Both the position numbers and the translations under genes were made by a program. A stretch of 64,000 nt of DNA from a virus: IMG/VR virus record IMGVR_UViG_3300045988_166150, positions 1 to 64,000 of that record; one strand, 5' to 3'. Positions 44,998 to 45,121 of the stretch are shown here, piece by piece; the first letter of the stretch is position 1; each line of letters begins with the position of its first letter. The notes under the pieces are model-generated. The model ran no database searches, was not told where the DNA came from, and saw nothing but the letters and a program-made list of their open reading frames with translations.

Positions 44998-45121
44998 TGG
45001 GTGGTAGCTCAATTGGCAGAGCAACGTAAATTTTCGTGTCTTGTATAAGACAATAGCAGCAATTTTTAAAGATAGCCTTGTAAGCCGTGTGTTGTTGGTT
45101 CGAATCCAACCCGCCCAACCA
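44998..45121 (+). tRNA. tRNA-Thr(UGU)-like gene interrupted by a 48-nt insertion (45027-45074) in the 5' strand of the anticodon stem
   Basis: acceptor TGGGTGG/CCGCCCA + ACCA, D arm GCTC/GAGC, T arm GTTGG-TTCGAAT-CCAAC; removing the insertion gives stem ACGGC/GCCGT and loop CTTGTAA; 76 nt. Confidence 0.6.

What the first reader, a model, noticed from the sequence alone, without database searches (positions are those of the whole stretch)
44998..45121. tRNA-Thr(UGU) with a 48-nt insertion inside the anticodon stem (between positions 29 and 30)
The acceptor, D arm, T arm, variable loop, anticodon loop CUUGUAA and ACCA are all canonical. The 5' strand of the anticodon stem is split: ACG (45024-26) and GC (45075-76) must be joined to pair with GCCGT. 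The insertion is far too short for a group I intron and is not in the anticodon loop. It contains its own 6-bp hairpin (TGTCTT/AAGACA). Non-canonical intron positions are known from archaeal BHB introns, not from bacteria or phages. Alternatives: a tRNA-mimic module of a Y-like RNA, a decoy for an anticodon nuclease, or a pseudogene.
Basis: partly seen in the sequence, partly recalled or inferred. Interest (0 to 1): 0.75.

Follow-up and report, generated by a model that had tools for sequence, protein, structure and literature searches.

The report
tRNA-shaped Y RNA beside phage Ro60-like gene
The "tRNA with an insertion" is real, but it is most likely not a tRNA waiting to be spliced: it looks like a tRNA-shaped small RNA whose extra hairpin is the docking site for the Ro60-like protein encoded right after it, one member of a large, apparently undescribed family in phages.

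Summary
**Observation: confirmed.** Window 44998-45121 is a perfect cloverleaf with ACCA. Its anticodon-stem 5' strand is split (ACG / GC) by 48 nt. Deleting 45027-45074 gives ARAGORN tRNA-Thr(UGU).

**Intron reading: not supported.**
- The next gene (45166-46590, Pfam DUF2828+DUF7788) models as a full-length Ro60/TROVE ring plus vWA domain.
- About 97 distinct "interrupted tRNAs" lie next to DUF2828 genes in other phages, up to five per phage and with different tRNA bodies.
- All carry the same insert: a covarying hairpin followed by ACAGCAA. Its position varies (26/27 to 31/32).
- Only about a third can regain a canonical anticodon loop.
- The "anticodon" differs between orthologues. A phage whose protein is 97% identical has an 8-nt loop.
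- No bulge-helix-bulge (BHB) splice motif or group I features are present.

**What the insert is.** The same stem+ACAGCAA module forms free-standing hairpin RNAs, three of them at 44758-44990. I counted 458 such units beside the gene in 176 of 199 loci, against 9 on the opposite strand. In Enterococcus phage EFDG1 the module closes a YrlA-like permuted tRNA domain. That RNA is the exact circular permutation of this element.

**Best reading (0.75).** It is a Y-RNA-like tRNA mimic in native tRNA order, the partner of the Ro60-like protein. Protein binding and function are inferred, not shown. It is a new variant of a known kind.

The parts
44710..44738 (+). Sigma-70-type promoter (TTGACA, 17 nt, TATAAT, with TG extension). 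It probably drives the whole RNA array and the downstream gene.
   Evidence: 12/12 consensus match. It is conserved in the close relatives L036, L034 and L039. No + strand terminator-like site is predicted before 46777. Its use as a promoter is inferred.
44758..44851 (+). Free-standing hairpin RNA unit 1. The terminal stem is AAGCCTCT/AGAGGCTT, with U + ACAGCAA (44767-44773) directly 3' of the 5' strand and a variable interior.
   Evidence: It has the same architecture as the 458 units found next to DUF2828 genes.
44862..44922 (+). Free-standing hairpin RNA unit 2. The stem is GCCACG/TGTGGC, with C + ACAGCAA (44869-44875).
44933..44990 (+). Free-standing hairpin RNA unit 3. The stem is AGGACACA/TGTGTCCT, with U + ACAGCAA (44942-44948).
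   Evidence: fold z = -2.4. There is a weak Rfam hit to Dicty_Class_I_RNA (21.9 bits, E = 0.85, below the gathering score of 41.5).
44998..45121 (+). The finding itself: a tRNA-shaped RNA in native tRNA order, with acceptor, D arm, T arm and ACCA. A 48-nt module is inserted in the 5' strand of the anticodon stem.
   Evidence: Model R1 gives 106.7 bits, E = 6e-26. Helices covary in 24 and in 96 distinct relatives.
45037..45052 (+). Module hairpin (TGTCTT-GUAU-AAGACA). It is equivalent to the terminal stem of the free-standing units, here closed by a loop.
   Evidence: In relatives this hairpin is 95.5% paired, and all 6 pairs show compensatory changes. The MFE fold reproduces it.
45055..45062 (+). 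Conserved single-stranded motif AGCAGCAA, a variant of (N)ACAGCAA, lying 2 nt 3' of the module hairpin. It is the proposed protein-recognition element.
   Evidence: CAGCAA is invariant in alignments A1 and A5. Among the 97 elements the motif is ACAGCAA in 78, GCAGCAA in 7, ACCGCAA in 6 and TCAGCAA in 6. Protein binding is inferred.
45075..45088 (+). Anticodon-arm remnant: GC + 7-nt loop CUUGUAA + GCCGU. The last three nt (CGU) pair with ACG 45024-45026.
   Evidence: In the sub-lineage sharing ACG...GCCGT the loop is variable: CTTGTAA, CTGGTAA, ATGTTAA, ATTCGGA, ATATGGA, a 6-nt ATTCAG and an 8-nt ATTTGGGA.
45166..46590 (+). Gene for a 474-aa Ro60-like protein (Pfam DUF2828 + DUF7788, with a vWA MIDAS motif ADTSGSM). 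It is the proposed protein partner of the RNAs.
   Evidence: Pfam. PHROG 850 'RNA-binding protein'. AlphaFold2 model with pLDDT 83.5. Foldseek matches Ro60 structures 2i91, 1yvp, 9l5y and 9kop over the full length, E = 3.5e-9 to 1.7e-7, TM 0.5-0.58.

Best explanation
The element is a non-coding, tRNA-shaped Y-like RNA, not a tRNA precursor.

**Proposed mechanism**
1. It is transcribed from the promoter at 44710 together with three small hairpin RNAs and the mRNA of the adjacent Ro60-like (DUF2828) protein.
2. The tRNA body folds into the normal L-shape. Inferred: this lets RNase P, the 3'-end processing enzymes and CCA enzymes cut it out of the transcript and give it stable, tRNA-like ends.
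3. The 48-nt insert is kept. Its hairpin plus the single-stranded (A/G)CAGCAA that follows is the same module that closes the free-standing hairpin RNAs. Inferred: it is the docking site for the Ro60-like ring protein.
4. The result is an RNP in which a Ro60-like protein is tethered to a tRNA look-alike. By analogy with Ro60/Y RNA complexes, the RNA would gate the protein or tether it to tRNA-binding or RNA-processing partners.

Topologically it is the circular permutation of YrlA-type Y RNAs. Here the ends lie in the acceptor stem and the protein-binding stem is closed by a loop. In YrlA-like RNAs it is the other way round.

**Shown:** anatomy, conservation, covariation, gene association, the permutation relationship and the Ro60-like fold. 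**Inferred:** protein binding, processing, absence of splicing and biological role.
For: 1. **Neighbouring protein.** It is Ro60-like over its full length by predicted fold. It has no TROVE Pfam hit.
2. **RNA-only search.** The pattern AGAGCAA...GTGTC...GACA...CAGCAA found 27 viral stretches. 26 of them carry a DUF2828 homologue (32-68% identity); where the RNA and the 5' part of the gene fall in the same stretch, the gene lies within about 1 kb downstream on the same strand.
3. **Interrupted tRNA shapes.** ARAGORN with introns allowed found 182 with the motif, 91 unique in the loci (97 with looser motif variants and the window), in 77 loci and up to 5 per locus.
4. **Covariation.** On a plain MAFFT alignment of 24 members, 93% of cells are paired, against 37-47% for slid controls. 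The insert hairpin has 6/6 pairs with compensatory changes. The result is the same on 96 distinct sequences.
5. **Same module in free-standing units.** There are 458 units within 1.5 kb upstream or 1.2 kb downstream on the gene's strand in 176/199 loci. This compares with 22 elsewhere on that strand, 2 inside the gene and 9 on the opposite strand.
6. **Cultured phages of four phyla.** The units occur in EFDG1, Rumpelstiltskin, BPS17W1 and LMTA-148, upstream or downstream of the gene. That argues for trans-acting RNAs rather than a leader element.
7. **Permutation.** EFDG1 unit L200 2626-2746 reads: stem, ACAGCGA, GC-N7-GCCGT, V, T arm, closed acceptor, D arm, ACG, stem. It gets sub-threshold Rfam YrlA hits (44.9 bits, E = 9e-7). 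The circularly permuted window element aligns colinearly with it: score 85.5, against 33 +/- 7 for shuffles and 16 unpermuted.
8. **The anticodon is not conserved.** It varies among orthologues, and class-I bodies carry Ser anticodons.
Against: - No expression, processing or binding data exist; everything about the RNP is inferred from co-occurrence and analogy.
- In 31 of 97 members, including the window, removing the insert restores a textbook anticodon stem-loop (U33, purine 37, usually A37-A38).
- In one Asn-like pair (L009/L075) the anticodon stem-loop is identical while the T stem and the module hairpin have diverged. So some feature of the anticodon arm is under selection in part of the family, which the docking-site model alone does not explain.
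- The window copy has a variant motif (GCAGCAA, 7/97) and a mismatch at the base of its hairpin.
- The closest relatives in bacterial genome bins (45-57% protein identity) have only free-standing units and almost no tRNA-order element. The tRNA scaffold is therefore optional.
Confidence: 0.75

Rival explanations
1. It is a genuine tRNA-Thr(UGU) gene with a non-canonical intron at position 29/30. A phage or host activity removes the intron and the ends are religated, for example by the RNA ligase encoded at 49342-50457, to give a decoding tRNA.
For: - In-silico removal gives a perfect tRNA.
- 31/97 relatives likewise regain canonical loops, several with bodies matching the anticodon. For example, the 3' half of an Asn-like element is 86% identical to a real phage tRNA-Asn.
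- An RNA ligase and an HD phosphohydrolase are encoded nearby. RtcB lies near the DUF2828 gene in Listeria phage LMTA-148.
Against: - No BHB can form: the last four exon nucleotides are AACG and no CGTT-like partner lies near the 3' junction.
- 48 nt is far too short for a group I intron, and there are no intron or ribozyme hits.
- Two thirds of the family cannot regain an anticodon loop.
- The insert position shifts between 26/27, 28/29, 29/30 and 31/32.
- The loop differs in phages with 86-97% identical neighbouring proteins, including an 8-nt loop.
- Orthologous bodies carry GGT, GAT or GGA, and class-I bodies carry Ser anticodons that SerRS could not use.
- U1-A72 / G2-C71 do not match the usual bacterial ThrRS acceptor determinants (established knowledge).
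- The insert is a conserved structured module shared with non-tRNA hairpins.
Confidence: 0.05
2. It works as a tRNA decoy or bait. The RNP presents an anticodon-arm look-alike with a real acceptor end to host tRNA-targeting defence nucleases or to tRNA-modifying or repair enzymes. It either soaks them up or recruits repair (RNA ligase) to damaged tRNAs. This is a specific functional version of the best explanation.
For: - Canonical loops are retained in a third of members and are dominated by NNU-A37-A38 types (GUU, GCU, GGU, GAU, UGU, UUU), while the triplet itself drifts.
- The elements sit inside phage tRNA gene clusters.
- RNA-repair genes are linked.
- Bacterial Ro60 operons are linked to RtcB repair, and YrlA is a substrate of tRNA enzymes (PMC4201824, PMC7790460).
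Against: - Most members have no anticodon-like loop at all.
- Many DUF2828 loci have only plain hairpin units.
- No nuclease or target is identified, and nothing was tested.
Confidence: 0.12
3. It is mainly a processing signal. The tRNA shape recruits RNase P and the 3'-end processing enzymes to cut the polycistronic transcript, releasing the upstream hairpin RNAs and the 5' end of the mRNA. The insert would be incidental.
For: The element lies between the hairpin array and the gene, 7 nt after unit 3 and 44 nt before the start codon, with no terminator in between. tRNA-like punctuation is an established principle.
Against: - It does not explain why the insert is the same conserved, covarying module as in the free-standing units.
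- It does not explain why up to five different tRNA bodies carry the module.
- It does not explain why the permuted form exists.
- Ordinary phage tRNAs would serve equally well as punctuation.
Confidence: 0.06
4. It is a decaying tRNA pseudogene disrupted by an insertion. This is how annotation pipelines label the cyanophage copy.
For: GenBank annotates the homologous element of Synechococcus phage B3 as 'tRNA-Pseudo-GCA'. Standard tRNA finders reject the window copy.
Against: - The element is conserved next to the same gene across proteins only 32-36% identical.
- All helices show compensatory changes, including the insert hairpin.
- tRNA tertiary-interaction nucleotides are intact.
Confidence: 0.02

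Closest known systems
YrlA RNAs (Rfam RF02553): bacterial and phage Y RNAs that mimic tRNA and bind Ro60/Rsr (Chen et al. 2014, PMC4201824)
   Same: - Encoded next to, and on the same strand as, a Ro60-type ring protein.
- Combines a protein-binding stem module with a tRNA-like domain that has authentic D and T arms and a 7-bp acceptor-type stem.
- Several RNAs per locus.
- The permuted relatives in phage EFDG1 score 45 bits on the YrlA model.
   Different: - Opposite topology. Here the 5'/3' ends and CCA are in the acceptor stem and the protein-binding stem is a closed hairpin inside the anticodon arm. In YrlA the ends are in the Ro-binding stem and the acceptor-like stem is closed.
- The YrlA signature GNCGAAN0-1G is absent. 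The conserved motif is ACAGCAA instead.
- The partner protein is DUF2828/DUF7788, not a Pfam TROVE protein.
- There is no Rfam YrlA hit on the window element.
Deinococcus radiodurans Yrn1 and metazoan Y RNAs with Ro60
   Same: A small RNA whose helix plus adjacent single strand binds a Ro60 ring and whose other end carries an effector module. Yrn1 also has tRNA-like features, including an anticodon-arm-like stem-loop (PMC4201824).
   Different: The conserved Ro-binding bulged helix of Y RNAs is not present. The tRNA likeness here is complete (cloverleaf plus ACCA) rather than partial.
Archaeal tRNA genes with BHB introns at non-canonical positions (e.g. 29/30)
   Same: A tRNA gene interrupted inside the anticodon stem, where removing a short insert restores a canonical tRNA.
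   Different: - No bulge-helix-bulge can form at the junctions.
- The relatives occur in phages of bacteria and in bacterial genome bins, where no splicing endonuclease is known (established knowledge).
- The insert is a conserved functional-looking module.
- Most relatives cannot be restored.
Dictyostelium Class I RNAs (Rfam RF01414; Kjellin et al. 2021, PMC7919456). This is relevant to the neighbouring hairpin units and to the module, not to the tRNA body.
   Same: - A short GC-rich stem joins the 5' and 3' ends.
- A conserved single-stranded motif lies directly 3' of the 5' strand: Dictyostelium CCUUACAGCAA, phage N(U/A)ACAGCAA.
- The interior is variable, lengths are 50-70 nt, and the 3' strand is followed by (U)GU.
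- There are many copies per genome.
   Different: - The match is only a weak sub-threshold CM hit (21.9 bits against 41.5).
- The similarity rests on a 7-nt motif plus architecture and could be coincidence.
- The known direct binder is an RRM protein (Rnp1A/CIBP).
- Whether Dictyostelium has a DUF2828 partner was not testable here.
tmRNA and other tRNA-like RNAs with a large domain replacing the anticodon arm
   Same: A true acceptor/T-arm tRNA-like end with CCA, combined with a non-tRNA domain where the anticodon arm should be.
   Different: There is no mRNA-like reading frame or pseudoknots, the D arm is complete, and the element is much smaller. The partner is a Ro60-like protein rather than SmpB.

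Membership tests
Canonical elongator tRNA (tRNA-Thr UGU) | Cloverleaf with 7-bp acceptor stem, D and T arms, conserved tertiary nucleotides and a 3' CCA | tested here: met
   U8, G18-G19, the TTCGAAT T loop and ACCA are all present.
Canonical elongator tRNA (tRNA-Thr UGU) | Continuous 5-bp anticodon stem closing a 7-nt loop in the gene | tested here: not met
   The 5' strand is split by 48 nt. Standard ARAGORN and Rfam tRNA at gathering score do not call it. It is called only after in-silico deletion.
Canonical elongator tRNA (tRNA-Thr UGU) | Anticodon and isoacceptor identity conserved among orthologues | tested here: not met
   The loop is CTTGTAA, CTGGTAA or an 8-nt ATTTGGGA in phages with 83-97% identical neighbouring proteins. 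The same bodies carry GGT, GAT or GGA elsewhere.
Canonical elongator tRNA (tRNA-Thr UGU) | Aminoacylation and use in translation | not testable with these tools
   This needs acid-gel northern blots or charging assays. The acceptor pairs U1-A72 / G2-C71 differ from the G1-C72 / C2-G71 determinants known for E. coli ThrRS (established knowledge, not tested here).
tRNA with archaeal-type (BHB) intron | Bulge-helix-bulge at the two exon-intron junctions | tested here: not met
   The last four exon-1 nucleotides are AACG, and the intron 3' end TTTAAAGATA offers no CGTT-type partner.
tRNA with archaeal-type (BHB) intron | Removal of the insert restores a functional tRNA in relatives | tested here: not met
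   Only 31 of 97 distinct relatives regain a canonical 7-nt loop with U33 and R37 on a complete stem.
tRNA with group I intron | An intron of about 200 nt or more with a P1-P9 core, inserted in the anticodon loop | tested here: not met
   The insert is 48 nt and lies in the stem. There is no Intron_gpI or ribozyme hit even at E <= 5.
YrlA (RF02553) Y RNA | Encoded adjacent to, and on the same strand as, a Ro60 orthologue | tested here: met
   The element ends 44 nt upstream of a protein with a full-length Ro60-like predicted fold. The association holds in 26/27 RNA-pattern hits. Caveat: the protein is Ro60-like by fold only, not by the Pfam TROVE model.
YrlA (RF02553) Y RNA | GNCGAAN0-1G motif in the Ro-binding module | tested here: not met
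   The motif is absent from 44740-45165 and present in only 1/97 relatives.
YrlA (RF02553) Y RNA | RNA termini in the Ro-binding stem; tRNA-like domain internal, with a closed acceptor-like stem-loop (order T, AS, D) | tested here: not met
   The window element has native tRNA order with an open acceptor stem. It matches the EFDG1 YrlA-like unit only after circular permutation.
YrlA (RF02553) Y RNA | Reaches the Rfam gathering score (69 bits) | tested here: not met
   There is no YrlA hit at E <= 5 in 44400-47800. The EFDG1 relatives reach 44.9 and 34.2 bits.
YrlA (RF02553) Y RNA | Physically bound by the Ro60-type protein | not testable with these tools
   This needs RIP, EMSA or a structure.
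DUF2828-associated stem + ACAGCAA RNAs (a class defined here) | A helix whose strand is followed within 0-2 nt by single-stranded ACAGCAA (or a one-base variant), within about 1.5 kb of a DUF2828 gene and on its strand | tested here: met
   The window has AAGACA-AU-AGCAGCAA at 45047-45062, with the gene at 45166. The GCAGCAA variant is shared by 7/97 elements.
Dictyostelium Class I RNA (RF01414), considered for units 44758-44990 | Reaches the Rfam gathering score (41.5 bits); 6-bp terminal stem plus an 11-nt CCUUACAGCAA motif | tested here: not met
   The best hit is 21.9 bits, E = 0.85. No hits at E <= 1 were found in nine further loci. The architecture and 7 of the 11 motif positions are shared.

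The most novel reading that the evidence does not exclude
The hairpin/stem + ACAGCAA module may define a very large, undescribed class of Y-like RNAs that partner DUF2828-type Ro60 homologues. These proteins occur in at least 710 cultured phage genomes and are also a eukaryotic protein family.

Its tRNA-order members could be living intermediates between real tRNAs and permuted YrlA-type Y RNAs. Those that keep an intact anticodon arm and CCA, like this one, would still be handled as tRNAs (modified, charged or cut). They would serve as bait or sensors for host tRNA-targeting defences within a phage RNA-repair RNP.

An extension: Dictyostelium Class I RNAs, which share the stem + ACAGCAA design and have no understood mechanism, could be the eukaryotic counterparts bound by a DUF2828 protein. 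[quoted passage not shown]
Probability: 0.2. Interest if true: 0.85.

Novelty: new variant of a known kind. Interest (0 to 1): 0.6.

Why it matters
Ro60/Y RNA particles are conserved from bacteria to humans. Their bacterial Y RNAs are known to mimic tRNA, but why they do so and how they arose is open.

This locus points to a second, much more widespread phage branch of that system:
- a Ro60-like protein that Pfam lists only as domains of unknown function;
- its own RNA signature, ACAGCAA;
- RNAs that exist both as YrlA-like permuted tRNA mimics and, as here, in native tRNA order with a real acceptor end, and sometimes an intact anticodon arm.

This gives a concrete evolutionary path from tRNA genes to Y RNAs. 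It also offers experimentally tractable model phages carrying the protein and its hairpin RNAs (Felix O1-like, Listeria P100-like, Enterococcus EFDG1, mycobacteriophage cluster L); of the cultured phages I examined, only cyanophage B3 carries the tRNA-order form. Finally, it explains 'pseudo-tRNA' calls in phage annotation.

If the RNPs act on tRNA damage or tRNA-targeting defences, they would be a new phage counter-defence module.

Tried and rejected
**Dead ends**
- Sequence-only searches of the protein, and of a 25-sequence profile, against PDB gave nothing. Only the fold comparison worked.
- Standard ARAGORN and Rfam at gathering score miss the window element. ARAGORN -i calls it, but with a forced loop intron and a mismatched stem.
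- Literature: 'DUF2828', 'DUF7788' and 'Ro-like' return only plant lists and genome announcements. A motif-string search returns primers.
- The supplementary text on skipping-rope RNA is not held, and the Annual Review on bacterial Ro60 is not held.
- Dictyostelium link: the proteome files in the supplement are truncated, and neither DDB_G0281243 nor DUF2828-like motifs could be found. The Class I model gave no hits at E <= 1 on nine further loci.

**Readings considered and rejected**
- BHB intron.
- Group I intron or ribozyme.
- Pseudogene.
- Cis-regulatory leader of the DUF2828 mRNA. The RNAs lie downstream of the gene in Rumpelstiltskin, BPS17W1 and cyanophage B3.
- A base-pairing interaction between ACAGCAA and the anticodon-like loop. 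Complementarity is not consistent across loop types (by inspection output).

**Negative comparative result**
Relatives in bacterial genome bins (L120-L199) have almost no tRNA-order elements, only free-standing units.
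Full report
**1.
Window 44998-45121 reads as follows: acceptor TGGGTGG, TA, D arm GCTC-AATTGGCA-GAGC, A, ACG, a 48-nt insert (45027-45074), GC, loop CTTGTAA, GCCGT, variable loop GTGTT, T arm GTTGG-TTCGAAT-CCAAC, acceptor CCGCCCA, ACCA. Standard ARAGORN and the Rfam tRNA model at gathering score do not call it. When the 48 nt are deleted in silico, ARAGORN returns a 76-nt tRNA-Thr(tgt) with a perfect ACGGC/GCCGT stem. The insert contains the hairpin TGTCTT-GTAT-AAGACA (45037-45052).

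**2. Surroundings.**
The window is a low-GC phage segment.
- Upstream genes: NrdD and NrdG (41331-44040) and an HD phosphohydrolase (40135-40722).
- Promoters: two perfect 12/12 sigma-70-type promoters at 44474 and 44710. No + strand terminator-like site is predicted before 46777.
- Hairpins after the second promoter: three at 44758-44851, 44862-44922 and 44933-44990. Each has a GC-rich terminal stem followed, one nucleotide after the 5' strand, by ACAGCAA.
- The tRNA-shaped element starts 7 nt after the third hairpin and ends 44 nt before the start codon of a 474-aa ORF (45166-46590).
- Downstream: a skipping-rope RNA (46592-46739), tRNA-Asp, tRNA-Phe, a defective Tyr-like tRNA, and an RNA ligase (49342-50457).

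**3. The neighbouring protein is Ro60-like.**
Pfam gives only DUF2828 + DUF7788. PHROGs calls it 'RNA-binding protein'. Sequence and profile searches of PDB find nothing. An AlphaFold2 model from a 28-sequence alignment (pLDDT 83.5, pTM 0.78) matches Ro60 structures over the whole length. The matches are Xenopus Ro60 2i91/1yvp/1yvr, human Ro60 complexes 9nep, and Thermus phage phiLo Ro60 9l5y/9kop, at E = 3.5e-9 to 1.7e-7 and TM 0.5-0.58. Other hits match only the vWA half. The MIDAS motif DxSxS is present (ADTSGSM). The family is huge. More than 5,700 clusters match in the protein collection. There are 710 cultured phage records, including Felix O1-like coliphages, mycobacteriophages (annotated 'Ro-like RNA binding protein'), and Listeria, Enterococcus, Staphylococcus, Campylobacter, Vibrio and Bacillus phages. 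Five of these proteins again show DUF2828 + DUF7788 and no TROVE hit.

**4. The interrupted tRNA shape is a conserved partner of that gene.**
- Six viral contigs with 61-68% identical proteins were fetched. Five have a 125-142-nt Rfam tRNA hit directly upstream of the gene.
- In the alignment, the acceptor, D and T arms, an insert hairpin GTGTC...GACAC and the following ACAGCAA are conserved. The anticodon stem covaries: ACAGT/ACTGT, ACAAC/GTTGT, AAGGT/ACCTT, ATAGC/GCTAT.
- A search of viral contigs with an RNA-only pattern gave 27 stretches. 26 of them carry a DUF2828 homologue of only 32-68% identity; where the RNA and the 5' part of the gene fall in the same stretch, the gene lies within about 1 kb downstream on the same strand.
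- I fetched 160 further DUF2828 loci. ARAGORN with introns allowed then found 182 interrupted tRNA shapes carrying the motif in 77 loci. There are up to five per locus with different tRNA bodies, including a long-variable-arm type.
- On a plain MAFFT alignment of 24 diverse members, 93% of cells in my proposed structure are paired, against 37-47% when partners are slid. All six pairs of the insert hairpin show compensatory changes.
- A covariance model built from that alignment scores the window element at 106.7 bits (E = 6e-26), the only such hit in the window.
- On 96 distinct matches, the acceptor and T stems are 99.6% paired and the insert hairpin 95.5%. Anticodon-stem pairs 27:43 and 28:42 are about 97% paired, but pairs 29:41 to 31:39 are only about 60-70% paired. 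That alignment is fitted to the model, so the MAFFT result is the fairer test.

**5. Testing the intron idea.**
For 97 distinct elements I measured how the anticodon arm is built.
- In 42 elements the 5-bp stem is continuous and the insert simply replaces the loop. The last 7 nt look like an anticodon loop in only 13 of these.
- In 37 elements the 5' strand is split as in the window. 31 of these have a 7-nt loop with U33 and R37.
- In 18 elements the stem is incomplete.
- The insert position therefore ranges over 26/27, 28/29, 29/30 and 31/32.
- Orthologous bodies carry different triplets: GGT in L072, GAT in L082, GGA in L066. Class-I bodies carry Ser-type GCT or GGA anticodons.
- In the window's own sub-lineage (ACG...GCCGT) the loop varies widely: CTTGTAA (window, L039), CTGGTAA (L034), 8-nt ATTTGGGA (L036, protein 97% identical), ATGTTAA (L008 group), 6-nt ATTCAG (L032), ATTCGGA (cyanophage B3) and ATATGGA (EFDG1).
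- No bulge-helix-bulge can form at the window's junctions. Rfam finds no intron or ribozyme, even at E <= 5.

A decoding tRNA-Thr that needs splicing is therefore very unlikely. One caveat stands. The canonical loops in the split class are far more frequent than in the continuous class. In one Asn-like pair the anticodon stem-loop is identical while the T stem and module hairpin have diverged. So the shape of the anticodon arm seems to matter in part of the family.

**6. What the insert is.**
The same design occurs as free-standing units: a helix whose strand is followed within 0-2 nt by ACAGCAA. I counted 458 units within 1.5 kb upstream or 1.2 kb downstream of the gene on its strand, in 176 of 199 loci. 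This compares with 22 elsewhere on that strand, 2 inside the gene and 9 on the whole opposite strand. There are 351 unique units with a median length of 72 nt, usually followed by GU.

These units flank the gene in four cultured phages: Enterococcus phage EFDG1, mycobacteriophage Rumpelstiltskin, Salmonella phage BPS17W1 and Listeria phage LMTA-148. They lie upstream in some and downstream in others. That placement argues against a leader-only role.

Fifty-six unique units contain a T-loop. The long ones in EFDG1, Rumpelstiltskin and BPS17W1 contain a T arm, a closed 7-bp acceptor-like hairpin and a D arm. This is the YrlA design of Chen et al. 2014 (PMC4201824). Rfam's YrlA model hits EFDG1 at 44.9 and 34.2 bits, below its gathering score of 69.

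EFDG1 unit L200 2626-2746 reads: AAGAATC, TA, ACAGCGA, spacer, GC-ATATGGA-GCCGT, variable loop, T arm, closed acceptor, TA, D arm, A-ACG-TA, spacer, GATTCTT. This is the window element cut open in its module hairpin and closed at its acceptor stem. The circularly permuted window element aligns colinearly with it: 75 identities, score 85.5, against 33 +/- 7 for shuffles and 16 for the unpermuted sequence.

**7. How it most likely works.**
Shown:
- the anatomy, conservation and covariation;
- the tight gene association;
- the shared module;
- the permutation relationship;
- the Ro60-like fold.

Inferred:
- The promoter at 44710 drives one transcript carrying the three hairpins, the tRNA-shaped RNA and the mRNA.
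- The tRNA body directs RNase P, 3'-end processing and CCA handling, as shown for M. smegmatis YrlA (PMC4201824). This yields a stable ~124-nt RNA.
- The hairpin plus ACAGCAA docks the Ro60-like ring.
- The tRNA part then tethers or gates the protein with respect to tRNA-binding or RNA-processing partners. This is by analogy with Ro60/Y RNA/PNPase complexes (PMC4201824, PMC12135203).

The linked RNA ligase and HD gene here, RtcB in LMTA-148 and the position inside tRNA gene clusters suggest tRNA repair, surveillance or counter-defence. This is speculation.

**8. Comparison and novelty.**
The element works like a YrlA-type Y RNA but fails three of YrlA's defining features: the GNCGAA motif, the topology and the Rfam score. 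Its partner is not a Pfam TROVE protein.

I found no paper describing RNAs associated with DUF2828. The library lacks most subscription journals, so prior description cannot be excluded. GenBank labels the cyanophage B3 copy 'tRNA-Pseudo-GCA'.

I rate it a new variant of a known kind: a Y-like tRNA mimic in native tRNA order, belonging to a large, apparently undescribed stem-ACAGCAA RNA class.

**9. A loose end.**
The free-standing units share architecture and seven motif positions with Dictyostelium Class I RNAs (CCUUACAGCAA next to a 6-bp terminal stem; PMC7919456). The covariance-model match is weak (21.9 bits) and was not reproduced at E <= 1 elsewhere. [quoted passage not shown] I could not determine whether it is a DUF2828 protein. 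This is a lead, not a finding.

Noticed in passing
window 44758-44851, 44862-44922, 44933-44990; also L001 2489-2813, L003 2639-2833, L032 7706-8026, L201 4442-4698, L203 2617-2882: Arrays of small hairpin RNAs (GC-rich terminal stem, then 0-2 nt, then ACAGCAA, then a variable interior, with a GU tail) accompany DUF2828 genes in 176 of 199 loci. They share design and motif with Dictyostelium Class I RNAs (CCUUACAGCAA). [quoted passage not shown]
   Followed up: partly
window 46592-46739: A skipping-rope RNA (RF02924, 45.9 bits, above the gathering score) starts 2 nt after the stop codon of the DUF2828 gene and carries a 68-nt insertion in one hairpin. Relatives have skipping-rope RNAs inside the downstream tRNA cluster, right after tRNA-Asp (L001 6067-6149, L003 6175-6362). 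The function of this RNA class is unknown, and its link to this locus was not examined.
   Followed up: no
window 47557-47634 (and 47485-47491): A Tyr-like class II tRNA (loop CUGUAAA; Rfam tRNA 37.8 bits) ends in ACCA but has no adjacent 5' acceptor strand, and ARAGORN rejects it. A complementary GGGTGCT+TA lies 64 nt upstream, which may be chance (rough estimate p ~ 0.02). The orthologue in L034 (5169-5256) has a paired acceptor stem but a different anticodon loop, and ARAGORN calls it tRNA-Ser(act). This may be a second tRNA-like RNA whose anticodon is not conserved.
   Followed up: partly
window 44474-44709: A second perfect promoter (44474-44502) precedes a ~200-nt stretch with no Rfam hit that ends in a T run. 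The stretch is conserved in L036 and L039 but replaced in L034. It could be a small RNA or a very short ORF.
   Followed up: no
L008 6262-7657 (same array in L011, L013, L024, L030 and others): Five tRNA-order elements occur in a row upstream of one DUF2828 gene. Each has a different tRNA body, including a long-variable-arm type, and all carry the hairpin + ACAGCAA (or ACCGCAA) module. This suggests that different tRNA genes captured the module repeatedly, or that the array expanded with body swapping.
   Followed up: partly
L204 2994-3103 (Synechococcus phage B3, MN695334.1 221705-221814): A cultured cyanophage carries the tRNA-order element (motif variant ACUGCAA) plus a free-standing hairpin (UCAGCAA) about 400 nt downstream of its DUF2828 gene gp345 (36% identical). 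GenBank annotates it as 'tRNA-OTHER / tRNA-Pseudo-GCA'.
   Followed up: yes
window 49342-50457 and 40135-40722; L203 5072-7017: An RNA ligase (PHA02142 OB fold + RNA_ligase) and an HD phosphohydrolase lie within about 5 kb of the Ro60-like gene. In Listeria phage LMTA-148 an HD phosphohydrolase and RtcB 'tRNA splicing ligase' genes lie 0.6-2.5 kb downstream of its DUF2828 gene. This points to a possible RNA-repair theme.
   Followed up: partly
L203 1424-1975 (Listeria phage LMTA-148): A ROOL RNA match just below the gathering score (90 against 99.1 bits, E = 8e-17) lies about 1 kb upstream of the DUF2828 gene, in an unannotated gap.
   Followed up: no
L036 343-817 and L034 1308-1886: In close relatives the nrdD/nrdG region differs. 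In L036 nrdD is called in two pieces with a ~470-nt gap. L034 has a NUMOD4/HNH_3 homing-endonuclease gene after nrdG that the window lacks.
   Followed up: no
L006 2742-3024: A related phage contig encodes a tmRNA (Rfam 96.7 bits, tag peptide DTELSMVA) within the tRNA cluster downstream of its DUF2828 gene.
   Followed up: no
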